Origin: Candidatus Lutacidiplasmatales archaeon
GTDB lineage: Archaea > Thermoplasmatota > Thermoplasmata > Lutacidiplasmatales > UBA184
Assembly (NCBI GenBank): GCA_044451945.1
Contig: JBIOKR010000005.1
Coordinates: forward strand, 4,573 to 68,572
Direction of reading: 5' to 3'
DNA length: 64,000 bases
How positions within the stretch are numbered: position 1 is the first letter of the stretch; each line of letters opens with the position of its first letter. Positions 3,183 through 25,098 of the stretch are shown in pieces. The translations under genes were made by a program, and so were the position numbers. The notes under the pieces were generated by a model. It saw only the letters and a list, made by a program, of their open reading frames with translations, did no database searches and was not told the origin of the DNA.

Positions 3183-3599
3183 TTGGTCTTCACCGTGCTC
3201 GGGAGGGTAGCGAGGCCCCTCGGATGGATCGCCATCGGAGTGACCACAGGTCTCCTGGTCGGCTTGATCTCTGCACCTTCGGTTGACAGGCTCATTCACC
3301 CGAGCCACTCACCCACCACCCCGGACTATCCGATCTGGTGTTCCAGCCCGAACCCCCAAGCTGGATACAATTATTCGGCGGTGTACGAGACGAGCAACGG
3401 GACAATCTCGTCGTTCGGTGGGTTCTCCGGTGGCGCATTTGCGACCGCCGGCCCAGGGGAGCTTGTGCTGCCTATCGGGACGGGCAGTTACTCCAACCAG
3501 ACCCTAATCCACAGCATGTTCTGCTACGTGAACCAAGGGCACTCGGGGGGTTTCCCATTCCACGTCGACCTTTCTACCAAGGAAGTTGTTTGGGGCTGA
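3183..3599 (+). CDS. Hypothetical membrane-anchored or secreted protein
   Basis: N-terminal hydrophobic segment, two Cys and N-glycosylation sequons (NYS, NGT, NQT). Start uncertain. Confidence 0.55.
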   Translation: MVFTVLGRVARPLGWIAIGVTTGLLVGLISAPSVDRLIHPSHSPTTPDYPIWCSSPNPQAGYNYSAVYETSNGTISSFGGFSGGAFATAGPGELVLPIGTGSYSNQTLIHSMFCYVNQGHSGGFPFHVDLSTKEVVWG

Positions 3600-3697
3600 A
3601 TCAAGGATCTCGTTTCGTGACACCCCCGCGCACCACGGCCTGAAGAGCTCGAGCGTGGAGCGTCTGATTTCGTGCTCTGGCGGTTCAGACTCGGATT

Positions 3698-4237
3698 CTA
3701 AGGCGTCGGCAGCTCCCGCTCCTTCCGCTGGGTTCCTTTGGAAGGGATAGCGACGGCGGCGACCATGGCCACCGCACCCACCACCATGAGCCCGACCGCG
3801 ACCAAACCACCGAAGGGAGCCTCACTGTAGGTGACACTGACCGTTATGTTCGAGCCGGGGGCGAAGGCACCCGGAAATACCATGAAGAGCTCCCCGGGCC
3901 CACCTGTCCAGGTCAGCGAGCCAGCGGTCCCGGGCCCGCGGGCTACGGGAGAGGAGTTGGGGTCAAACTGGGAGCAGTTCGCGCTGTGCCCGCAACTATA
4001 GACCTTGAGGTCGCCACCACTCGCGGTCGGCCATCCGCTCGAGCTCCAAGTCGCGGTGTACATGATCTGAAGTCCCAGGATGTTGTTTCCGACCGGAGCG
4101 GTCACGTTCTCGGCGTAGAAGGTTCGAGCGCTCGAGGAAAACGTCCGTGGAGGGAACGATCCATGCGTAGGCGCCACCCAGAGGAAAGACCCTCCGATTA
4201 CGATCAATAGACCAACCGCGAGAATCCACCGCCTCAA
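3698..4237 (-). CDS. Hypothetical membrane protein with N- and C-terminal TM helices
   Basis: GGAGG lies just before a TTG start. Sequence begins RRWILAVGLLIVIGG, has a C-x4-C motif, and ends in a TM helix with a basic tail. Confidence 0.7.
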   Translation of the reverse strand: MRRWILAVGLLIVIGGSFLWVAPTHGSFPPRTFSSSARTFYAENVTAPVGNNILGLQIMYTATWSSSGWPTASGGDLKVYSCGHSANCSQFDPNSSPVARGPGTAGSLTWTGGPGELFMVFPGAFAPGSNITVSVTYSEAPFGGLVAVGLMVVGAVAMVAAVAIPSKGTQRKERELPTP

Positions 4238-4337
4238 GGTCGCCTCCGGGGCCGCGATTGGTTACGGGGTCATAGACGTTGCTTCGTTGGTCGCTCGCTG
4301 CCCCCCAACCAGAAGGGCGCCTTTTTTGAAAGCGGCG

Positions 4338-4892
4338 GTGCATGGCCAGCCGCGCGTCCTCCGGAAGCGAAGCAGTATTACTTCCGAGCGCCTCTCCCCT
4401 CCTTCGAGCGCGACCCCAACCCTCGTGGGGAAGGAGGCGGATCCGACGACCGAAGGAGTTCCGATAGCGAGCACAACTGAACCGGCGGCTCCTGTCCGCC
4501 GAAGGCGAATCTCACCCACCGATAGGAAGAGTCGTCGAATCTTCGTCGCTGTGATCGCCGTCCTCGTGGCCGTTCCAATCGTGGTGGCGGTCTACGAGGA
4601 GGATCGTCCCCGGGGCTACCAGTTCGTTCTGAGCAACAACTTGCACACCCCAATCCAAGTGGCCGTCGCGATCGATGGGACAACGGTCTATGATGGGAAC
4701 ATTACGGGATGGGGCGGCTTTATCCACAACGGGACGGACCCGTGGTACATCAACGACTGCATCGAGCATTCGATCGTGGTAATCACCAACCTCAGTTCTC
4801 CGAACTGGGATGGCCGATGGAGCGGCGGCATCGGGGATTGCCCGGGGCAGCATACCGTCTTGAAGGAGTTCACTTCCCAGTTACAGTGGTAG
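4338..4892 (+). CDS. Hypothetical single-pass membrane protein
   Basis: Basic stretch, then TM RRIFVAVIAVLVAVPIVVAVY, then a beta-rich extracellular domain with sequons. Start uncertain. Confidence 0.6.
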   Translation: MHGQPRVLRKRSSITSERLSPPSSATPTLVGKEADPTTEGVPIASTTEPAAPVRRRRISPTDRKSRRIFVAVIAVLVAVPIVVAVYEEDRPRGYQFVLSNNLHTPIQVAVAIDGTTVYDGNITGWGGFIHNGTDPWYINDCIEHSIVVITNLSSPNWDGRWSGGIGDCPGQHTVLKEFTSQLQW

Positions 4893-5033
4893 GCCGGTTG
4901 CGACCGGTGCCGTTCCCGTCTCGCTCTCATCGACCGCGATTCGACCCCCCGGCAAAGGGTGGGTTGATTCCCGGCTACGGTAGGGCACTTCCCGCTCGGC
5001 TTAGCTCAGCGAATCCGCTGGGTCAGGGGGTCG

Positions 5034-5276
5034 TCATTGCGTTCTCATGCGAGCCGCGTCCCCAGGGGGAGCATGCCGGCTGGTGTCGCCACCTTTCCAC
5101 CGTGCCGGTCGGGCAAACCATGCGGCTGCAAGTATGCCAAATAGGAGCGCCGTTCCGGCCCAAAAGTCTGGTGGAAGACCGAGAATCCAAAGGTCAGGAG
5201 AGTTCGCCAAACCGTCCGCAATCACCCCCCAGGTGCAGATGATCACCATTGCCCCAATGATTCGGACCGCTCGCAT
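5034..5276 (-). CDS. Small two-TM hypothetical protein
   Basis: MRAVRIIGAMVIICTWGVIA...FWAGTALLFGILAAAWFA. Confidence 0.5.
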   Translation of the reverse strand: MRAVRIIGAMVIICTWGVIADGLANSPDLWILGLPPDFWAGTALLFGILAAAWFARPARWKGGDTSRHAPPGDAARMRTQ

Positions 5277-5361
5277 GGATTGCGGTAGCTGCCCCCAAGG
5301 TAAAGGCCTGCGCACGGCGGTGGGTCGACTGGGGCGGACCCGCGCGAATCGCGTCCCCCGG

Positions 5362-6282
5362 CTAAGTCTCAGCTACCGAGGTCAGAAGGACCTTGCCCAC
5401 CGGCGCGGAAAACTGGACATTGGTCCAGGCGGTGAAGTTCGAGAGACTCGCGTTCCCGACCGAACAGCGAGTGGAAGAGGTGACCGTCATTGAGAACTTG
5501 AGGACGTAGTGGTCACCTCTTGTCATCCCGGTCAACAGCGGAACCTTCCAGGAGAAGCTTCCGCAGTGGGACACGTTGAGAGAGAATCCAGTATTCGGAT
5601 AAACCGATGAGGAGCAGCCCGAACTACTCGAGCAGGCCGAGAGATTGGAGGCATAGTCCAGGATGTACGAGAAGTTGGTGGTCGAGCTGAACGACGTGTT
5701 CGACGTGAGGTCAAAGATGTACGCTTGCCCAGTCAGTTCAGTCTCAAGCCCCCGGTCGCAGAACGAGTAACCGGGATGTCCAATGGTCTTGCATTTGCCC
5801 CATGAGAACAGCATGCTGGTGGAGTCGTTGTACGTGATATTAGCGAAAACTGTTGGAGTTCCCGCGCGATAGGACAGATTCACAGAAGCGTCGAACCCAC
5901 CGGTCACCTCGGCGTATCGAGTTGATGACGTGTTACCCAACGAGTAGGTATGGCAAGAAGTCGCCCAGGTCGTGTAATTGTAGTGGGCTTGGCCCGTCCG
6001 GAGAACGAATCGCGGGTTTCCTCCGGCCCAGGCCGACATGCACCCCTTGCCGCCTGTCAATCCACGGTGACAAAGGCTCGAGTCCAGGCAGATGGCATTG
6101 TAGTGAGTGGCGGTGCCGCTGTATGGAGGTGTCAGGACCAAGACCGACGAAGATGGTACGGGGGTGGCCAACGCGAGCGGATTGAGCGTGATCAATCCCA
6201 TCGCAGCTGCGAGGACCAATGGCAAGAGGGCCCGGGGTCCGGGGACGGTCGTCACGGGTCCACCGCCTCGTGTTCCGCCCAT
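5362..6282 (-). CDS. Secreted Cys-containing beta-rich protein (paralogue family member A)
   Basis: Signal-like LLPLVLAAAMGLITL. Motif PPYSG...C...FVLRTG...C is shared with the genes at 9052, 54230 and 55249. Start at 6282 or 6255. Confidence 0.7.
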   Translation of the reverse strand: MGGTRGGGPVTTVPGPRALLPLVLAAAMGLITLNPLALATPVPSSSVLVLTPPYSGTATHYNAICLDSSLCHRGLTGGKGCMSAWAGGNPRFVLRTGQAHYNYTTWATSCHTYSLGNTSSTRYAEVTGGFDASVNLSYRAGTPTVFANITYNDSTSMLFSWGKCKTIGHPGYSFCDRGLETELTGQAYIFDLTSNTSFSSTTNFSYILDYASNLSACSSSSGCSSSVYPNTGFSLNVSHCGSFSWKVPLLTGMTRGDHYVLKFSMTVTSSTRCSVGNASLSNFTAWTNVQFSAPVGKVLLTSVAET

Positions 6283-20074: not shown

Positions 20075-22009
20075 TCACGCGAGGTTCATCTTGCGCAGCA
20101 GGAGCCGAAAACGTGGGTCCTTTGCGACGTGGGCGTGCATCGGGTCAAGGACCCAGTAGCGGGCGTTCACGTCGCGGCGCTCGAGCCCGCGCTCCAGCCA
20201 CACGAACAGCTCGTCGAGCTCGTTCAGGTGCGCGTAGACGTCGGCGAGGTCGGACTCCGAACGCAACCCTTCCGGCAGCTCCTCGAGCTTTCCCAGGATC
20301 TCCTTGGCCCGGGCCCTCTCCCCGATCGTGGCGTAGTAGACGGCGTAGTGCCCGAGGATCCACGGCTCCCCCGGGCGCAGCGCGTTGAGCCGGTCGATGG
20401 CGGGCAGGAGGTGGGTGAAGTCGGCGCGATGCAGGTAGTACAGGGCGAGCGCCGACTCGTAGAGCGAGCCGGCGGGGTCCGTCTTCGAGAGCGTCACGAG
20501 CTTCTGCCACGCCCGGTCGTACTGTCCAAGGTAGATCCACAGGGCGGTCTGGGAGGCCCCGATGACCGCTGAGTGGGGATCGGCCTCCTCCGCCAAGCCG
20601 AGCTCGCGCTCGGCCTCTTCGGCGCGCCCCTGGTCCTCCAGGAGGAGGGCGTAGGAGTGGTGGGCGACCGCGTTGCTCGGGTTCAACGAGACGGCGAGGC
20701 GGAACTCCTGCTCCGCCGGCCCGAACCGATAGTCGTCGTGCAGCACGAGACCGAGGGAGGCATGGGCCTCGGCCAGGTTCGGGTCGATCTCGACGGCGCG
20801 GGTCGCCAGGATGCGGCCACGTTCGCGGGCGAGCTCGGGGGCGATGTGCCGGTACCGGCCGAGTAGGCGCATCACATCCGCGAGCCCCGAGAGCGCCGCG
20901 GCGTTCAGCGGGTCGAGCGTCACCGCCCGCTCGAACTCGGCCTCCGCCCCTCTAAGCGCCTCCTTGGAGCGGTCGTTCAGAAGGGCCCGCCCCTTCAGGT
21001 AGGCGAGGTACGACTCGGGCCGCACGACCGGTCGCGAGGCAAGGCGGGCCTCCTCGCTCGCCCCGAGGTCGAGCCTAAGGTGCCCGGCGACGGCTTGGGC
21101 GATCTCGGCCTGGAGCGCGAGTACGTCGCCGAGCTCCCGGTCGTAGCTGCCGAGCGAGGTACTCTCCTGCGTCGAAACGTCGATCAGCTGCGCGTTGACC
21201 CTCAACCGGTTCCCTGATGTTCGGACGCTCCCCGAGAGGAGCGACGCCACCCCGAGCTCCGCGCCGATCTCGGCGGGATCCTTCGAGCTCGCCTTGTACT
21301 GCCGGACCGAGCCCGGCGCGATCACCCTCAGGTGGCGCAGCTGGCAGAGGACGCCGATGAGCTCCTCGGTGAGGCCGTCGGCGAAGTACTCGTCCTTTCC
21401 GTCCGCGCTGATGTTGACGAACGGCAGGACCGCGAGGCGCTGGGGGGCCGCCCGGGGGGCGCTCCCGGCCGCGCCCCGCGCCGGGAGTTTCAGGCGGTAG
21501 ACGTCCACGGGGACGAGCACGTTCTTGAGCGACCTCGGGTCGAGCTTCTCGAACCGCACGGCGATCTTGTTGCGGACCTGGTCGTACACCTGGCCGGAGA
21601 TGCACACCCCCCCGGGGTCGGCGAGCGGCTGCATCCGCGAGGCGACGTTCACCGCGTCCCCGAGGACGTCCTTCCCGGCGTGGACGACGTCGCCCAAGTG
21701 GATCCCGATGCGAAGCCGGAAGGGAGGGGCGGCCGGACCGTCTTCGCGAAGGCTCCGCTGGATCTCGATCGCGCAGGTCGTGGCCTCGAGCGCGCTGTCG
21801 AACTCCACGAGGAACGCATCGCCCATCGTCTTGACCTCTCGGCCGTGGAATCGGGGGAAGATCCTCCGCAGCCGGGCGTTGTGGTCCTCGAGGATGGAGA
21901 GCGCGGACGCCTCATCCGCCTGGGCCATGGCGGTGAATCCGACCATTTCGGTGAACATGATGGCGGCCAGACGGCGCTGCCGGTCGTCCACGGCGCCGGG
22001 AGCCGCCAC
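20075..22009 (-). CDS. Class III adenylate/guanylate cyclase domain + TolB-like domain + TPR repeats
   Basis: RRLAAIMFTEMVGFT, VKTMGDAFL, RIGIHLGDV, GDAVNVASR; then LAVLPFVNIS..DEYFADGLTEELI; then TPRs (AVTLDPLNA, AVEIDPNLAEAHASLG). Confidence 0.9.
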   Translation of the reverse strand: MAAPGAVDDRQRRLAAIMFTEMVGFTAMAQADEASALSILEDHNARLRRIFPRFHGREVKTMGDAFLVEFDSALEATTCAIEIQRSLREDGPAAPPFRLRIGIHLGDVVHAGKDVLGDAVNVASRMQPLADPGGVCISGQVYDQVRNKIAVRFEKLDPRSLKNVLVPVDVYRLKLPARGAAGSAPRAAPQRLAVLPFVNISADGKDEYFADGLTEELIGVLCQLRHLRVIAPGSVRQYKASSKDPAEIGAELGVASLLSGSVRTSGNRLRVNAQLIDVSTQESTSLGSYDRELGDVLALQAEIAQAVAGHLRLDLGASEEARLASRPVVRPESYLAYLKGRALLNDRSKEALRGAEAEFERAVTLDPLNAAALSGLADVMRLLGRYRHIAPELARERGRILATRAVEIDPNLAEAHASLGLVLHDDYRFGPAEQEFRLAVSLNPSNAVAHHSYALLLEDQGRAEEAERELGLAEEADPHSAVIGASQTALWIYLGQYDRAWQKLVTLSKTDPAGSLYESALALYYLHRADFTHLLPAIDRLNALRPGEPWILGHYAVYYATIGERARAKEILGKLEELPEGLRSESDLADVYAHLNELDELFVWLERGLERRDVNARYWVLDPMHAHVAKDPRFRLLLRKMNLA

Positions 22010-22015
22010 GCCCTG

Positions 22016-22954
22016 TTAATCCCTCGCGCCGTCGTCTTCCGAGGGGCTCCGGGGCGGCCGTCGGCCCCCTCGCGCGGGGGCCCGTCGACCCCCCGCCTTT
22101 CGGCGGCGCCGTCCCGGGGGCGACCCGGAAGCTCGCGAGGCGGGGGACGGGTCGGTCTCCCGCCGTGGGATCCTCAGGCGCTGCAGCGCGTCCTCGCTCA
22201 CATGGGAGGGAAGCGGGGGGACGAAGAGGGTGGCGACCGGGGCTACCGTCGCGCTCGCGAGACCTTCTATCGGAAGCCGTAGGATCGTCGGCCCCGCGAC
22301 GACGTAGGGCGACGCCTCGTAGAGCACCACTTCGTGCCTCGAGCCGTAGGCGTCCGACAACCGCTCTCCGAGGAATCGGAGCGCCGAAGCGATTCCCGAC
22401 GAGCGGTCGGGGCGGTAGTCGAGCACCCCGATGACCCCAACCTGCCAGAGGACGAGCGCGCTGGTCGGGTCGAACTTGCGGACATGGACCAGGAAATCGG
22501 TCGCCTCGAAGCTCTGGCAGCCGGAGCGCGCCGGATCCACACCGAGGTCGGCGAAAAGGCAATCCTCCGCGGAGATCGCCGGCAACATCTCGGCGCTGAG
22601 CCCCTCCTCCCGCGCGCGGCGGATCGCCTCGTGGGACGGATGGACGAAGACTCCGGGATGGCCGTAGAAGACGGCGCAGACCCGCTCGCCCGCGCGCACC
22701 GGGGACAGGATCCGGTCGACCATCCGACCGTACGCCACCGACCGGTCCTCGCCCGGCCGATAGGCGTCGCCCAACGACTCGGCGGTGGGTCGCAGCTTGC
22801 GGAGCCACGCCTCGGCGAGTCCGTCGGCCACCAGATAGAGGACCCGGTCGGCGTGCTGGATCTCGTGGCGCGCCTCCACACTCACGTGGCGCGCGGCCTT
22901 GATGCCGACGCCCACCACGATGAGGCGACCGGTCCTCGCCCGGGCCTGCCGCAC
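22016..22954 (-). CDS. Borosin-type peptide backbone alpha-N-methyltransferase (OphMA/SonM-like, TP_methylase fold)
   Basis: GRLIVVGVGI, ADRVLYLVAD, Y-x5-R-x3-Y (AYRPGEDRSVAY), VFYGHPGVFVHPSH, MLPAISAEDCLFADLGVDP, GCQSFEAT, LWQVG and VVLYEA. Confidence 0.92.
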   Translation of the reverse strand: MRQARARTGRLIVVGVGIKAARHVSVEARHEIQHADRVLYLVADGLAEAWLRKLRPTAESLGDAYRPGEDRSVAYGRMVDRILSPVRAGERVCAVFYGHPGVFVHPSHEAIRRAREEGLSAEMLPAISAEDCLFADLGVDPARSGCQSFEATDFLVHVRKFDPTSALVLWQVGVIGVLDYRPDRSSGIASALRFLGERLSDAYGSRHEVVLYEASPYVVAGPTILRLPIEGLASATVAPVATLFVPPLPSHVSEDALQRLRIPRRETDPSPASRASGSPPGRRRRKAGGRRAPARGGRRPPRSPSEDDGARD

Positions 22955-22984
22955 GGAGGACCCACCGGCGCCGTCCCTGCCGGG

Positions 22985-23227
22985 CTAATGCCCGCCGTGG
23001 TGCGTGATCTTGATGACGTGGGTGATGAACCAAGCGAGACCGACCGTGGGCTTGATGATCTCCCGGACCTCCGCGATGCTCCCGGAGAGGATGGCGTGGA
23101 TAGACCGCGGCGAAAGCCCGGCGCGCTTCATCACGGCCTCCGGGTCCTCTTTGTACTCCTCGAAGAGTTTCGGCTCGTCGGCGAGACGGGTCAGAAAATC
23201 GGTGACGCTCTTCGCTTCCGCATCCAC
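22985..23227 (-). CDS. Split-borosin precursor peptide (borosin-binding helical domain + C-terminal core)
   Basis: 80 aa. SVTDFLTRLADEPKLFEEYKEDPEAVMKRAGLSPRSIHAILSG is a LigA/BBD-like bundle, followed by VGLAWFITHVIKITHHGGH. Lies 30 nt upstream of the methyltransferase. Confidence 0.85.
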   Translation of the reverse strand: MDAEAKSVTDFLTRLADEPKLFEEYKEDPEAVMKRAGLSPRSIHAILSGSIAEVREIIKPTVGLAWFITHVIKITHHGGH

Positions 23228-23248: not shown

Positions 23249-23265
23249 GTAAATAGAACTTTCCG
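23249..23265 (-). promoter_or_regulatory. Putative BRE/TATA promoter of the borosin operon (leaderless)
   Basis: Minus strand reads CGGAAAGTTCTATTTAC; the TATA-like part ends 22 nt before the GTG at 23227. Confidence 0.5.
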
Positions 23266-23403
23266 GGCCGACCTTGGATTGCCCTCCGGCGGGCGATAGG
23301 TTCGGTCGCAAGGAGCAGCGGGGGAACTGCCTGCGCAGGATCGGGCCGGGGATCGGTGGGTCCACGGAAACGCTATTGGCCCGTTTGCCCCGTAGCCCGA
23401 GCG

Positions 23404-23673
23404 ATGCTCTCCTGCCCGTTCTGCGGGGCGCCCGAGACGGCCCGCCTGGATCTCGAAGGGAGCCGGTTCCTGGTGTTCGGCTGTCAATTCACCCCCAAGG
23501 TCGACCCGTCGTGGACCGACCCCGAGCTCGCCCAGCACCTGAAGAGCGATTTCCCCGCCACCGGGAGCGAGTACTTCCGGGGAGTGTGTGACCGCCTGCA
23601 CCTCTACGTGACGCGGGGGGCGGGCGGCCGCGAACTCCAGGGCTCCCCAGCCGTTCCGCGCGATCCGTCGTAG
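23404..23673 (+). CDS. Small Zn-ribbon-like hypothetical protein
   Basis: MLSCPFCGAPE...FGCQF...VCDRLH. Confidence 0.7.
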   Translation: MLSCPFCGAPETARLDLEGSRFLVFGCQFTPKVDPSWTDPELAQHLKSDFPATGSEYFRGVCDRLHLYVTRGAGGRELQGSPAVPRDPS

Positions 23674-24205
23674 TCCCCGTCCGGCCGCGAGGTTTCGACC
23701 TCTGGCCGGCAAAGAGGCCCGGTGGTTGGCGAGAGGACCGTCTCGACCCCTTTCGCCGCCGAGGTCGCGGGGCGGGCTGCCCCCGACGGCCGGGGTTCCC
23801 TCGCGCCCGCCGCACCGGGACGAGCGCCTCCGCCTCGATCTCGACCACCAATTCCTCCGAGATCAGCCGGGAGACCTCCACCATCGTGGTCGCCGGTCGG
23901 GCGGCTCCGAACACCTCGGCGTGCGCCCTTCCCACCGGCTCCCAGGCACGGATGTCGGTCACGAAGATCCGGGTCCGCACCACGTCCTCGGCCCCCGCCC
24001 CGAGCTCCCGGAGCGCCTTCAGGAGGTTGGCGATCGCCTGCCGGGTCTGCCGGTACGGGGCCCGCGTCGCGATCGGTCGCCCGTCCTCTCCGGTCGCCGT
24101 GGTACCCGATACGTACACGTGCTCCCCCGCACGGATCGCCCGGGAGTAACCGACCTGGGATTCCCACGGGGTACCGCTCGTTACCCGAACTCTTCGGGCG
24201 GCCAT
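23489..24205 (-). CDS. RidA/YjgF family protein with a long Arg-rich read-through tail
   Basis: SGTPWESQVGYSRA, VSGTT, DVVRTRIFV, RPATTMVEV and VEIEAEA. The domain ends near 23820 and the ORF continues to 23489. Confidence 0.8.
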   Translation of the reverse strand: MAARRVRVTSGTPWESQVGYSRAIRAGEHVYVSGTTATGEDGRPIATRAPYRQTRQAIANLLKALRELGAGAEDVVRTRIFVTDIRAWEPVGRAHAEVFGAARPATTMVEVSRLISEELVVEIEAEALVPVRRARGNPGRRGQPAPRPRRRKGSRRSSRQPPGLFAGQRSKPRGRTGTTTDRAERLGSPGVRGRPPPASRRGAGGHTLPGSTRSRWRGNRSSGAGRARGRSTTGRPWG

Positions 24206-24210
24206 CGGGT

Positions 24211-25098
24211 CTACGTCGGCACGGCGACCTGGCCGATCTTGGCGAGGGCGCTGTCGGTGGAGACGAGGTGCCGGGGGAGCCCGAGCTCCTGCGGGGTGGC
24301 GCCGAGTGCGAGCCCGACCAGTTGGGCCAGGTGGAAGACCGGCATGTCGATCGGCTCTCCGACCTCCTTGGCCGCCGGCTTCTGGAAGGAGTCGAGCGAG
24401 ATGTGGCAGAGTGGGCAGGGGGTCGCCATCGCATGGGCCCCATGGGCGGCGGCGTCCAGGAGTTGCTTTCCCGCGATCCGGTTCGCCGTCTCCGCCTTGA
24501 CGAACAGTACCGGAAACCCGCAGCACATCACGCGACCCCGGTACATCACGGGGGTCGCCCCGAGGGCGGTGATCAGGTCCTCGAAGGAGTGCGGCTCCTC
24601 TGCGCTCTCCGAGCCGAGCTCGTCCGCGGGTCGCAACAAGTGGCAGCCGTAGAAGGCGCCGACCTTGAGCCCGGTGAGCGGGCGGCGCACCTTCGCGCGG
24701 ATCGCCTCCGCCCCGATCGTCTGCGTCAGCACGCTCAAGAGGTGGTTCACGCGCGTCGTTCCCCGGTAGCTCACTCCGATCTGGGCGAGCGCCGGGTCGA
24801 CCTTGGCGCGGACTTCGGGCCGGGCGAGGCGGTGGTTCGCGAGCGAGAGCATTCCCTGGCAGGTCGAGCAGACCGTCAGGAGGTCGAGGCCCGCCTTCTC
24901 GGCGAACGCCAGGTTCCGGGCGTTCAGGGCGAGGTTGAGCGTCTCGTTCGCCTCGTCCATGAACCCCGAGCCGCAGCAGGAGAATCCCGGAAAATCGACG
25001 AGCTCGATCCCGAGCTTCTGGCAGACCCAGCGCGTCGACATGTCGAGCTCCTTGCCCGACTCCTTCGCGACGCACCCGGGGTAGTAGGCGAGCTTCAC
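24211..25098 (-). CDS. CCG-domain HdrB-like subunit of succinate dehydrogenase (SdhE/SdhC type)
   Basis: AYYPGC, SCCG, CSTC, FYGCHLLRP, MCCG and CPLCH. GTGA overlap with sdhB. Confidence 0.9.
   Translation of the reverse strand: MKLAYYPGCVAKESGKELDMSTRWVCQKLGIELVDFPGFSCCGSGFMDEANETLNLALNARNLAFAEKAGLDLLTVCSTCQGMLSLANHRLARPEVRAKVDPALAQIGVSYRGTTRVNHLLSVLTQTIGAEAIRAKVRRPLTGLKVGAFYGCHLLRPADELGSESAEEPHSFEDLITALGATPVMYRGRVMCCGFPVLFVKAETANRIAGKQLLDAAAHGAHAMATPCPLCHISLDSFQKPAAKEVGEPIDMPVFHLAQLVGLALGATPQELGLPRHLVSTDSALAKIGQVAVPT

What the first reader, a model, noticed from the sequence alone, without database searches (positions are those of the whole stretch)
20075..23227. Archaeal split-borosin RiPP operon coupled to a nucleotide cyclase-TPR protein
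Seen: three co-directional genes behind one TATA-like element, namely an 80-aa precursor, a 30-nt gap, a 312-aa methyltransferase, a 6-nt gap, and a 644-aa cyclase-TolB-TPR protein. The methyltransferase has all the borosin hallmarks (Y-x5-R-x3-Y, FYGHPGVF, ISAEDCLFADLGVDP, GCQSFEAT, LWQVG). The small protein has the DFLxxL...EEYKxDPEAVMxxxGLS helical binding domain that closely recalls Shewanella SonA (from memory). Established: borosin methyltransferases (fungal OphMA, bacterial SonM) methylate backbone amides of a C-terminal core, and bacterial split-borosin loci often neighbour cyclic-nucleotide signalling genes such as GGDEF. To my knowledge the characterised pathways are fungal or bacterial, and the flanks here are clearly archaeal. 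No protease or exporter is in the operon. Inference: the methylated peptide acts intracellularly, for example as a TPR ligand that controls second-messenger synthesis.
Basis: partly seen in the sequence, partly recalled or inferred. Interest (0 to 1): 0.92.

Follow-up and report, generated by a model that had tools for sequence, protein, structure and literature searches.

The report
Archaeal borosin peptide operon with cyclase
An archaeon carries a small operon for a backbone-methylated peptide of the borosin kind next to a cyclic-nucleotide cyclase with a repeat-rich sensor part, and related sensor proteins sit beside borosin genes in several other microbial groups, which hints that these peptides serve signalling.

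Summary
On the minus strand there are an 80-aa precursor (22985-23227), a 312-aa methyltransferase (22016-22954) and a 644-aa cyclase-TolB_N-like-TPR protein (20075-22009). The gaps are 30 and 6 nt, and a rare AT-rich box lies upstream.

The methyltransferase matches SonM (E 4.9e-57) and keeps the four SonM key residues. The precursor matches SonA (E 1e-8) and folds like it. This is a type IV split borosin on an archaeal contig.

Archaeal borosin methyltransferases were already noted in print, though none has been characterised. The borosin pair is therefore a new member, not a new kind.

New here:
- All 9 borosin loci found in this Thermoplasmata genus (8 of 150 genomes) have a cyclase-TPR gene directly adjacent, in two gene orders.
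- A homologous TolB_N-like+TPR module, fused to a Ser/Thr kinase, adjoins the methyltransferase in 23 of 31 Acidobacteriota loci.
- Cyclase-STAND-TPR or STAND-TPR proteins do so elsewhere.

The constant partner is the TPR module.

Caveats:
- The cyclase family is far commoner than the borosin.
- Linked copies are not one clade.
- The window's cyclase has Glu at the first metal-binding Asp.

The peptide-to-TPR ligand idea stays an inference.

The parts
23250..23258 (-). TATA-like AT-rich box (TTCTATTTA) with a purine-rich stretch just upstream. It is centred about 27 nt before the precursor's GTG, which would give a leaderless or near-leaderless transcript.
   Evidence: Sequence. It is one of only 24 sites with at least 7 of 8 A/T in 64 kb, and none lies inside the trio. 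Function as a promoter is inferred, not shown.
22985..23227 (-). Borosin precursor, 80 aa. The borosin-binding-domain leader spans about residues 1-58 (23054-23227). The linker and C-terminal core, residues 59-80 (22988-23053), read ...KPTVGLAWFITHVIKITHHGGH with two x-I-T-H units.
   Evidence: phmmer to SonA chains gives E 9e-9 to 1.6e-8 over residues 7-57. The AlphaFold model (pLDDT 78) has five helices plus a low-confidence C-terminal helix. The top PDB fold hits are all SonA, with TM 0.89 and rmsd 0.9 A over 51 columns. An alignment with 19 other precursors was made.
22016..22954 (-). Borosin-type peptide alpha-N-methyltransferase, 312 aa. The catalytic part is residues 9-250. Residues 250-312 form an Arg/Pro/Gly-rich tail that is not conserved in relatives. 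A GGTGGG lies 6 nt before the GTG.
   Evidence: phmmer gives SonM E 4.9e-57 and OphMA-type enzymes E about 4e-46. Y65, R71, Y75 and Y97 align with SonM Y58, R67, Y71 and Y93 (their roles are described in PMC8429565). The YGHP and DCLFAD motifs are present. Pfam TP_methylase E 2.5e-20.
20075..22009 (-). Soluble class III nucleotide cyclase - TolB_N-like - TPR protein, 644 aa.
   Evidence: Pfam and NCBIfam. PDB phmmer: 3mr7 E 5.6e-27, Rv1900c E 1.5e-16. AlphaFold model with pLDDT 85. Foldseek TM 0.9 to Ma1120 and Rv1900c cyclase domains. No hydrophobic segment found.
21488..21973 (-). Cyclase homology domain, residues 13-174. K60, D64, D114, N121 and R125 are kept, but E21 stands at the first metal-binding Asp.
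   Evidence: Alignments. 9 of 10 paralogues have Asp at that column. The spacing matches Rv1625c D256/K296/D300/D365/R376 (PMC4174876 passages).
21080..21442 (-). TolB_N/FlgO-like alpha/beta domain, residues 190-310, after a disordered linker at residues 177-188.
   Evidence: secondary structure. The Pfam matches are weak. The domain is strongly conserved among paralogues and in Acidobacteriota kinase proteins.
20090..21061 (-). TPR superhelix, residues 317-640, about ten helix pairs.

Best explanation
SHOWN BY HOMOLOGY: genes 1 and 2 are a type IV split borosin pair. The 80-aa precursor docks through its five-helix borosin-binding domain on the dimeric SAM-dependent methyltransferase. The enzyme then methylates backbone amides in the hydrophobic C-terminal core.

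By analogy with SonA L63 and I65 in the motif L-V-I-S-H, the likely sites lie in the two x-I-T-H units, around W66/I68 and I72/I74. These positions are inferred.

SHOWN BY COMPARATIVE GENOMICS: the pair is genetically coupled to a signalling protein whose constant part is a TolB_N-like+TPR module. Here that module is soluble and fused to a class III cyclase with the Lys/Asp pair typical of adenylate cyclases.

INFERRED MECHANISM, to which I commit: the three genes are one transcript. The peptide, either the precursor tail or a released core whose methylation makes it stable and rigid, binds the TolB_N/TPR module and changes dimerisation or activity of the cyclase domain. Peptide production and methylation are thereby read out as a cyclic-nucleotide signal. 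This resembles the way cytoplasmic TPR receptors of the RNPP type read short peptides.

My odds:
- Real borosin pair: 0.9.
- Functional coupling to the cyclase protein of some kind: 0.6-0.65.
- Peptide as ligand of the TPR module: about 0.3.
For: Borosin identity:
- SonM E 4.9e-57, and the four key residues are kept.
- SonA E 1e-8, and the fold matches at TM 0.89.
- The YGHP and DCLFAD motifs are present.

Operon:
- The gaps are 30 and 6 nt, with one rare AT-rich box upstream and none inside.
- GC3 is 0.87-0.92, like the neighbours.

Linkage in the genus:
- The methyltransferase was found in 8 of 150 genomes of the genus, at 9 distinct loci after removing duplicates.
- All 9 have a cyclase-TolB_N-TPR gene directly next to the pair. 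2 of the 9 are seen only as a contig-end fragment: L007 holds the C-terminal 199 aa, and L011 holds the first 19 aa at E 1e-4. 1 of the 9 (L116) has the cyclase split over two frames.
- Two gene orders occur: precursor-methyltransferase-cyclase in the window, L011 and L116, and cyclase-precursor-methyltransferase in L005, L006, L007, L010 and L117. L009 has a cyclase gene on both sides.
- G000 has a single copy of this cyclase family in 2.28 Mb, and it is the one beside the borosin pair.

Across phyla (80 best loci of 532 relatives):
- 31 of 34 matches to the TolB_N+TPR half (E < 1e-20) lie within 450 bp of the methyltransferase frame.
- Such a match is adjacent in 23 of 31 Acidobacteriota loci. 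19 of these have a kinase domain by local phmmer, and all 6 that I scanned against Pfam were confirmed as Pkinase+TPR.
- Cyclase-STAND-TPR proteins are adjacent in 4 of 9 Chloroflexota and 3 of 9 Actinomycetota loci.
- An AAA_16+TPR protein is adjacent in 2 of 2 Methanomassiliicoccales loci. One Microcoleus locus has two TPR proteins and a kinase-STAND protein.
- TPR-GGDEF-methyltransferase fusions make up about 30 of 61 long relatives. GGDEF genes occur in 56% of split borosin clusters (10.1101/2021.12.24.474128, section 8 read).
Against: - No binding or activity data exist. The complex prediction could not be run.
- The cyclase-TPR family is far commoner than the borosin. It occurs in 30 of 36 genus genomes, with up to 20 matches per genome, against 8 of 150 for the methyltransferase. 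Most copies therefore work without a borosin.
- Linked cyclases are not one clade. At least 4 changes are needed on a tree of 30, and the window's copy groups with an unlinked paralogue. The nearest paralogues share no flanking synteny.
- The 9 methyltransferases of the genus form one branch (SH-aLRT 91). The 9 adjacencies are therefore not independent events.
- The window's cyclase has Glu21 where 9 of 10 paralogues and all aligned solved cyclases have the first metal-binding Asp. It may be weak or inactive.
- In Acidobacteriota, 9 of 11 kinase proteins checked have a hydrophobic segment after the kinase (crude hydropathy scan). Their TolB_N-TPR part is then probably outside the cell, away from a cytoplasmic peptide unless that peptide is exported.
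- In the known fusions the methyltransferase is joined to the cytoplasmic GGDEF side.
- None of the 61 long relatives fuses the methyltransferase to a class III cyclase or a kinase.
- 0 of 15 cyanobacterial, 2 of 2 Nitrososphaeria and 8 of 31 Acidobacteriota loci lack an adjacent homologue of the module.
Confidence: 0.45

Rival explanations
1. The information flows the other way. The TolB_N-TPR module senses something else. The output domain (cyclase here, kinase or GGDEF elsewhere) or the whole protein then controls production or methylation of the peptide, or the methyltransferase-precursor complex docks on the output domain. The borosin is the output, not the input.
For: - In Acidobacteriota the sensor half probably lies outside the membrane, while the precursor and methyltransferase have no export signal.
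- In the known type X fusions the methyltransferase is joined to the cytoplasmic GGDEF end and the TPR is predicted to be periplasmic (10.1101/2021.12.24.474128 passages). Such fusions were seen again.
- Most cyclase-TPR paralogues of the genus have no borosin, so the module must have other inputs.
Against: - The output domain varies (cyclase, kinase, GGDEF, plain STAND NTPase) while the TPR part stays. A partner that docks on the output domain would have to fit four unrelated folds.
- The Methanomassiliicoccales neighbours have no output enzyme at all, only AAA_16+TPR.
- No cyclic-nucleotide-binding domain was found in the methyltransferase or precursor.
Confidence: 0.25
2. The borosin pair is a self-contained accessory gene cluster that makes a stable peptide for some other use, such as a secreted metabolite. 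The cyclase-TPR gene is a neighbour for historical reasons. The pair entered the genus once beside such a gene and sits in paralogue-rich variable regions.
For: - The methyltransferases of the genus have a single origin.
- The cyclase family is expanded and often in tandem.
- Linked copies are not a dedicated clade.
- Glu21 may mean a crippled cyclase, and one linked copy is frameshifted (L116).
- Borosin loci in Cyanobacteria, Nitrososphaeria and others lack the module.
Against: - Adjacency survived at least two gene orders and changes of paralogue subfamily in 9 of 9 loci.
- G000's only copy of the family is the adjacent one.
- The same homologous module is adjacent in 23 of 31 Acidobacteriota loci, a different domain of life with a different output enzyme, and 31 of 34 matches lie within 450 bp.
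- Shewanellamide A showed no antibiotic activity (PMC10549244 passage).
Confidence: 0.2
3. The cyclase protein is a second substrate or a scaffold or chaperone for the methyltransferase rather than a signalling device. Its TPR holds the precursor for methylation or proteolysis, and cyclase chemistry is irrelevant here.
For: - TPR domains often act as scaffolds (general knowledge).
- Glu21 at a metal site.
- Large split-borosin precursors exist (type VIII, about 600 aa; 10.1101/2021.12.24.474128 passage).
Against: - The other five canonical cyclase residues are kept, and the linked orthologues in L005 and L006 have the Asp.
- SonM needs no helper to methylate SonA in vitro (PMC8429565 passages).
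- No repeat core like D-V-D-V was seen in the cyclase protein (read, not searched formally).
Confidence: 0.1

Closest known systems
SonM/SonA type IV split borosin of Shewanella oneidensis (PDB 7LTC and others; product Shewanellamide A)
   Same: - The methyltransferase is homologous over residues 9-249 (E 4.9e-57), with the equivalents of Y58, R67, Y71 and Y93.
- The precursor is encoded separately and has the same five-helix binding domain.
- About 17 residues follow a Gly in the core, which holds a motif like L-V-I-S-H.
- There is no protease in the cluster.
- The neighbour gene makes a nucleotide second messenger.
   Different: - The host is archaeal.
- The neighbour is a soluble class III cyclase with TolB_N-like+TPR, not a GGDEF protein.
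- There is no efflux gene.
- The loop between the first Tyr and the Arg is three residues shorter (Y-x5-R against Y-x8-R).
- The methyltransferase has a 60-residue basic tail.
- The core sequence differs, and its methylation is untested.
Type X borosins: TPR-membrane-GGDEF-methyltransferase fusion proteins (Xanthomonadales; 10.1101/2021.12.24.474128)
   Same: A borosin methyltransferase is tied to a TPR-bearing second-messenger synthase. I saw this again in about 30 of 61 long relatives carrying PF13424+PF00990+PF00590.
   Different: In type X it is one polypeptide, membrane-bound, and makes c-di-GMP. Here the genes are separate, the protein is soluble, and the fold is that of a cAMP/cGMP-type cyclase.
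Receptor Ser/Thr kinase-TolB_N-TPR genes beside borosin pairs in Acidobacteriota
   Same: The TolB_N-like+TPR half is homologous to that of the window's protein (E 1e-45 to 1e-61). It lies directly upstream of precursor and methyltransferase, the same order as in L005 and L006.
   Different: The output domain is a protein kinase. Most have a predicted membrane segment, so the sensor half is probably extracytoplasmic.
RNPP-type peptide signalling of Firmicutes (Rap-Phr, NprR-NprX, PlcR-PapR); recalled, not tested here
   Same: This concerns only how it may work. A small peptide gene is co-transcribed with a cytoplasmic TPR receptor that carries an effector domain.
   Different: There is no sequence relationship. 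RNPP peptides are exported, cut and re-imported and are not backbone-methylated. The window's precursor has no export signal, and no membership is claimed.
Mycobacterial class III adenylate cyclases Rv1900c, Ma1120 and Rv1625c
   Same: The catalytic fold matches (TM 0.9). The Lys/Asp substrate pair, Asn/Arg and the second metal Asp are kept.
   Different: The first metal Asp is Glu in the window's protein. The regulatory part is TolB_N-like+TPR.

Membership tests
Borosin alpha-N-methyltransferase (SonM/OphMA type) | Closest relatives are peptide N-methyltransferases, not tetrapyrrole or YabN methylases. | tested here: met
   All 25 PDB matches are SonM, OphMA, dbOphMA or MroMA (E 4.9e-57 to 6.6e-44). 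NCBIfam tetrapyrrole/YabN models score 14-34 bits against cut-offs of 163-525.
Borosin alpha-N-methyltransferase (SonM/OphMA type) | The signature motifs used for borosin detection (YGHP and DCLFAD). | tested here: met
   FYGHPGVF and ISAEDCLFADLG are read. The motif names come from 10.1101/2021.12.24.474128, section 8.
Borosin alpha-N-methyltransferase (SonM/OphMA type) | Active-site residues equivalent to SonM Y58, R67, Y71 and Y93. | tested here: met
   Y65, R71, Y75 and Y97 align with them in the HMMER alignment. Their roles are described in PMC8429565 passages. They are invariant in the two relatives.
Borosin alpha-N-methyltransferase (SonM/OphMA type) | Backbone amide methylation of a ribosomal peptide. 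| not testable with these tools
   Needs co-expression and LC-MS/MS.
Type IV split borosin precursor | A separate small gene next to the methyltransferase, encoding an N-terminal borosin-binding domain. | tested here: met
   SonA E 9e-9 to 1.6e-8 over residues 7-57. The predicted five-helix bundle has SonA chains as its top fold matches, TM 0.89. The Foldseek E-values are only about 0.01 because the domain is small.
Type IV split borosin precursor | A short hydrophobic C-terminal core after the binding domain. | tested here: met
   The tail is ...GLAWFITHVIKITHHGGH. 19 aligned precursors likewise end in I/V/T-rich tails. The sites of methylation are unknown.
Class III nucleotide cyclase | Cyclase homology domain fold. 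| tested here: met
   Pfam PF00211 scores 66 bits against a cut-off of 21.9. Foldseek TM 0.86-0.91 to Ma1120, Rv1900c and 3MR7.
Class III nucleotide cyclase | Six canonical catalytic residues: two metal Asp, the substrate pair, and Asn and Arg. | tested here: not met
   Five of six are present (K60, D64, D114, N121, R125). The first metal Asp is Glu21. 9 of 10 paralogues have Asp there. The protein is a member of the fold family; catalytic competence is open.
TolB N-terminal domain family | A significant match to the family model. | tested here: inconclusive
   Pfam TolB_N E 0.043 (14.4 bits, cut-off 22.4) and FlgO E 0.0018 (18.6 bits, cut-off 22.6). NCBIfam TolB E 0.0039. An alpha/beta domain is predicted at residues 190-310.
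RNPP peptide receptors | Sequence or fold membership. | not tested
   Used only as a functional analogy from recall. No RNPP structure appeared among the listed fold matches.

The most novel reading that the evidence does not exclude
Borosin peptides are not antibiotics. They are dedicated ligands of a TolB_N-like+TPR sensor module that evolution has wired to different outputs: cAMP/cGMP-type cyclases in a Thermoplasmata genus, receptor Ser/Thr kinases in Acidobacteriota, STAND NTPases in Chloroflexota, Actinomycetota and Methanomassiliicoccales, and diguanylate cyclases in Gammaproteobacteria. This would be a peptide-signalling system shared by Bacteria and Archaea, in which backbone N-methylation sets ligand stability or shape. 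The archaeal version is fully soluble and cytoplasmic.
Probability: 0.3. Interest if true: 0.85.

Novelty: new variant of a known kind. Interest (0 to 1): 0.6.

Why it matters
The natural role of prokaryotic borosins is unknown. The one bacterial product identified, Shewanellamide A, had no antibiotic activity, and the authors call its role elusive (PMC10549244 passages).

A recurrent, position-specific link to TPR-bearing signalling proteins with interchangeable outputs points to signalling. It also names a concrete partner to test.

The archaeal system is attractive for that test for three reasons. All three proteins are predicted to be soluble. The genome has a single copy of the cyclase family. 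The read-out, cyclic nucleotide synthesis, is simple.

It would also be a first handle on what controls class III cyclases in Archaea. These enzymes are rare: PF00211 was found in 9 of 121 genomes sampled from the class (one of the nine, G158, is flagged unpublished). Few archaeal ribosomal peptide natural products are known.

Tried and rejected
1. **Read-based check of chimerism and expression.** The look-up of sequencing runs on window:18500-24500 listed no run, and no RNA holder was listed.

2. **Complex prediction.** I asked for the cyclase protein (alignment A4) with the precursor (A5). The machine did not answer six times and the tool was then declared unavailable. Nothing was folded, so there is no result of any kind on binding.

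4. **Synteny.** I asked whether the borosin pair was inserted beside a pre-existing cyclase gene. The three nearest paralogues (L087-L089) share only the cyclase gene with the window, with no flank synteny. The question stays open.

5. **Fusion search.** Among 61 long relatives of the methyltransferase, none carries PF00211 or PF00069. Only TPR+GGDEF fusions, probable tandem methyltransferases and a few others were found. The search scored only the 8000 candidates sharing most words.

6. **A dedicated 'borosin-type' cyclase clade.** Rejected by the tree of 30 paralogues.

7. **Reading the 126-aa frame as the precursor.** Rejected, because homologues start at the 80-aa position.

8. **Paper searches.**
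- (six terms, any two) was too loose and gave nothing useful.
- Searches (borosin+kinase, 16 papers; borosin+cyclase, 21 papers) showed no sign, in the listings and in the passages I opened, of a described link to Ser/Thr kinases or class III cyclases.
- Table 1 of 10.1101/2021.12.24.474128 is an image. Its supplementary Pfam lists could not be opened and may already list such domains.
- Subscription papers on borosin mining are not in the library.

9. **Limits of the survey.**
- Only the best 80 of 532 relatives were seen.
- Adjacency was scored by homology to the window's protein, so unrelated TPR proteins are undercounted. The Microcoleus and Methanomassiliicoccales cases were found only by extra Pfam scans.
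- The membrane-segment call is a plain Kyte-Doolittle scan.
- Both trees used the quick method.

Full report
**What is there**

The three genes lie on the minus strand:
- An 80-aa precursor at 22985-23227, starting with GTG.
- A 312-aa methyltransferase at 22016-22954.
- A 644-aa cyclase protein at 20075-22009.

They are separated by 30 and 6 nt. The box TTCTATTTA at 23258-23250 is centred about 27 nt before the first GTG. Sites this AT-rich (at least 7 of 8 A/T) number only 24 in the 64-kb window, and none lies inside the trio. The second and third genes are preceded by GGTGGG and GAGGG. One leaderless transcript with internal ribosome-binding sites is the simplest reading, but it is inferred.

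A longer 126-aa frame exists for the first gene. The 19 aligned homologues begin where the 80-aa form begins.

**Is it a borosin pair?**

Yes, as far as sequence and fold can tell.
- All 25 PDB sequence matches of the methyltransferase are borosin enzymes: SonM E 4.9e-57, dbOphMA 1.3e-48, OphMA about 4e-46.
- Tetrapyrrole and YabN models of NCBIfam score 14-34 bits against cut-offs of 163-525.
- In the HMMER alignment, Y65, R71, Y75 and Y97 stand at SonM Y58, R67, Y71 and Y93. These are the residues whose mutation lowers or abolishes SonM activity (PMC8429565, passages).
- The two motifs used to detect borosin enzymes, YGHP and DCLFAD, are present (10.1101/2021.12.24.474128, section 8).
- The precursor matches SonA over residues 7-57 (E 9e-9 to 1.6e-8).
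- Its AlphaFold model (pLDDT 78) has five helices. Its best PDB fold matches are all SonA chains, with TM 0.89 and rmsd 0.9 A over 51 columns.

After Gly63 come 17 residues, LAWFITHVIKITHHGGH, with two x-I-T-H units. Shewanellamide A is the 16 residues after SonA Gly55 and is methylated on L63 and I65 of L-V-I-S-H (PMC10549244, passages). By analogy the methyl groups should fall around W66/I68 and I72/I74. That is inference only.

**Is the host archaeal and the contig sound?**

- The same window encodes an archaeal proteasome beta subunit (242 bits, cut-off 224), ribosomal protein L18e, aCPSF1 (894 bits) and CDC48.
- GC is even across the window.
- The trio's third-position GC (0.87-0.92) matches its neighbours.
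- The nearest relatives of the methyltransferase lie in records titled 'Thermoplasmata archaeon'.
- The same trio sits inside long contigs of other assemblies, of 215, 306 and 595 kb.
- Reads could not be consulted.
- The immediate neighbours are a convergent winged-helix/AsnC-type regulator, a small protein without family, a RidA-type protein and succinate dehydrogenase subunits. There is no protease or exporter.

**The third gene**

- Pfam finds Guanylate_cyc (E 3.9e-18) and TPR families.
- The AlphaFold model (pLDDT 85) shows a cyclase domain at residues 13-174, a disordered linker, an alpha/beta domain at 190-310 that matches TolB_N and FlgO only weakly, and a TPR superhelix at 317-640.
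- The cyclase domain superposes on Ma1120 and Rv1900c with TM 0.9.
- K60, D64, D114, N121 and R125 keep the spacing of Rv1625c K296, D300, D365 and R376. This is the Lys/Asp pair of adenylate cyclases.
- Residue 21 is Glu where the first metal-binding Asp should be. 9 of 10 paralogues have Asp, as do the linked orthologues L005 and L006.
- No hydrophobic segment is present, so the protein is predicted to be soluble.

**Is the cyclase gene really linked?**

Within the genus, the methyltransferase was found in 8 of 150 genomes. That search used a stricter first look, so the count is a floor. After removing duplicates between named and handle loci there are 9 distinct loci, and every one has a cyclase-TolB_N-TPR gene directly beside the pair.

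Two of these are seen only at a contig end:
- L007 holds the last 199 residues, 81% identical to L005's protein.
- L011 holds the first 19 residues, 23 nt after the methyltransferase, at E 1e-4, which is weak.

In L116 the cyclase is split over two frames.

Gene order differs:
- Precursor-methyltransferase-cyclase in the window, L011 and L116.
- Cyclase-precursor-methyltransferase in L005, L006, L007, L010 and L117.
- In L009, cyclase genes lie on both sides and a third lies 2.3 kb away.

G000 holds a single copy of the family, and it is the adjacent one.

**Points against a simple reading**

- The family is present in 30 of 36 genus genomes sampled, with up to 20 matches in one genome.
- The window's closest paralogues (52% identity) are in genomes without the methyltransferase and share no flanks with the window.
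- On a tree of 30 paralogues the linked copies need at least 4 changes.
- The nine methyltransferases form one branch (SH-aLRT 91, not starred). The borosin probably entered the genus once, and the nine adjacencies are not independent.

**The wider pattern**

Of 532 relatives found in one genome per species, I saw the best 80. The TolB_N-like+TPR half of the window's protein, searched alone, hits large frames beside the methyltransferase. 31 of 34 matches at E < 1e-20 lie within 450 bp of it, and 3 lie 2.3-3.9 kb away.

| Group | Loci with an adjacent neighbour | Kind of neighbour |
|---|---|---|
| Acidobacteriota | 23 of 31 | TolB_N+TPR homologue; 19 have a kinase domain by local phmmer, and all 6 scanned against Pfam are Pkinase+TPR |
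| Chloroflexota | 4 of 9 | class III cyclase-STAND NTPase-TPR |
| Actinomycetota | 3 of 9 | class III cyclase-STAND NTPase-TPR |
| Methanomassiliicoccales | 2 of 2 | AAA_16+TPR |
| Microcoleus (one locus scanned) | 1 of 1 | two TPR proteins and a Pkinase-AAA_16-GAF-SpoIIE protein downstream |

By the homology test, 0 of 15 Cyanobacteria, 0 of 2 Nitrososphaeria, 0 of 2 Rhizobium and 0 of 2 Planctomycetota loci have the module.

About 30 of 61 long relatives are TPR+GGDEF+methyltransferase fusions, and none carries a class III cyclase or a kinase. The literature reports GGDEF genes in 56% of split borosin clusters, as well as these fusions (10.1101/2021.12.24.474128).

The common denominator is therefore a TPR-bearing signalling protein, and the output enzyme varies.

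**Mechanism**

The constancy of the TPR part argues that it is the part that meets the borosin system. I take peptide-to-TPR-to-output as the most likely scheme, at about 0.3.

The strongest objection is topology. 9 of 11 Acidobacteriota kinase proteins checked have a hydrophobic segment after the kinase, and type X fusions are predicted to show their TPR in the periplasm. In bacteria the peptide would therefore have to leave the cell to be sensed. Otherwise the contact is with the cytoplasmic side, and the borosin is an output rather than an input.

In the archaeon all parts are predicted to be soluble, so both directions are physically possible. I could not test binding because the complex prediction tool did not complete.

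**What is known already**

Archaeal borosin methyltransferases have been reported as database hits:
- 11 hits, 8 of them Halobacteria, plus a mixed Streptomycetales/Halobacteriales cluster (10.1101/2021.12.24.474128).
- 'Bacteria and a few archaea' (PMC10549244).
- 'Fungi, archaea, and bacteria' (10.1101/2024.01.09.574750).

In those passages I saw no archaeal system described as characterised.

I found no text on a link to class III cyclases or Ser/Thr kinases (searches, passages). However, the relevant table is an image, the supplements were closed, and some borosin mining papers are not in the library.

**Verdict**

The pair is a new archaeal member of type IV split borosins.

Two things are new as far as I could check:
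- Its coupling to a soluble class III cyclase-TolB_N-TPR protein.
- The recurrence of the homologous sensor module beside borosin genes in Acidobacteriota.

Together they make this a new variant of the known borosin-GGDEF association. The ligand hypothesis is open. Interest 0.6.

Noticed in passing
window 20075-22009 and relatives (G001, G003, G007, G011, G020, G025, G033 and others): The class III cyclase-TolB_N-TPR family is strongly expanded in this Thermoplasmata genus. It occurs in 30 of 36 genomes, with up to 20 matches in one 1.6-Mb genome and often in tandem. It was found in 0 of 24 genomes of other families of the class with the same query. PF00211 was found in only 9 of 121 genomes sampled across the class (which includes the unpublished G158). 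G000 itself has one copy.
   Followed up: partly
L012, L017, L018, L021, L026, L028, L030, L033, L049, L054, L080 and others: In Acidobacteriota the borosin pair is preceded by a Ser/Thr kinase-TolB_N-like-TPR gene in 23 of 31 loci. 9 of 11 proteins checked have one hydrophobic segment after the kinase, which is a receptor-kinase topology. Several loci (L033, L051, L084) have such a gene on both sides.
   Followed up: partly
L005:8037-8306, L006:3484-3744, L007:755-1000, L010:4836-5084, L014:4428-4730; also L033, L049, L071, L082: Many precursors carry a strongly basic Arg/Lys-rich tail after the hydrophobic core, for example ...RRGRRRKKKAT. In some Acidobacteriota the Lys-rich tail runs 30-50 residues. 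The window's precursor lacks one, but its methyltransferase has an Arg-rich C-terminal tail instead.
   Followed up: no
L116 (G170:C7), about 3572-5480, minus strand: The cyclase-TPR gene beside the borosin pair is split between two reading frames, matching query residues 12-243 and 237-644. This is either a frameshifted pseudogene or an assembly error.
   Followed up: partly
L034:8871-16773 (Microcoleus) and L014:1889-4345, L020:1085-3616 (Methanomassiliicoccales): Other borosin loci are flanked by TPR proteins of unrelated sequence. The Microcoleus locus has two TPR proteins plus a 1713-aa Pkinase-AAA_16-GAF-SpoIIE protein. The Methanomassiliicoccales loci have AAA_16+MalT-like TPR proteins with no enzyme output domain.
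   Followed up: partly
window 22985-23227: The precursor's leader gives a sub-threshold match to NCBIfam IniB_NTERM (E 1.7e-6, 27.9 bits against a cut-off of 40) and to Pfam LigA (E 0.01). SonA itself is deposited as a 'LigA domain-containing protein'. A possible relation between the IniB N-terminal domain and the borosin-binding domain was not pursued.
   Followed up: no
window 23489-25075, minus strand: The RidA-type domain (Ribonuc_L-PSP, residues 307-418 of the frame) sits in a 528-aa open frame. That frame runs on well past the domain and overlaps the opposite-strand 105-aa ORF at 23356-23673. This is probably the long spurious frames typical of 70% GC DNA, and the true gene limits are unclear.
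   Followed up: no
NMT tree, L014/L020 and L029/L044: The archaeal borosin methyltransferases seen here fall in three separate places on the tree: the Thermoplasmata genus, Methanomassiliicoccales with Actinomycetota, and Nitrososphaeria among Chloroflexota and Acidobacteriota. This suggests several transfers into Archaea (quick trees, midpoint root).
   Followed up: partly
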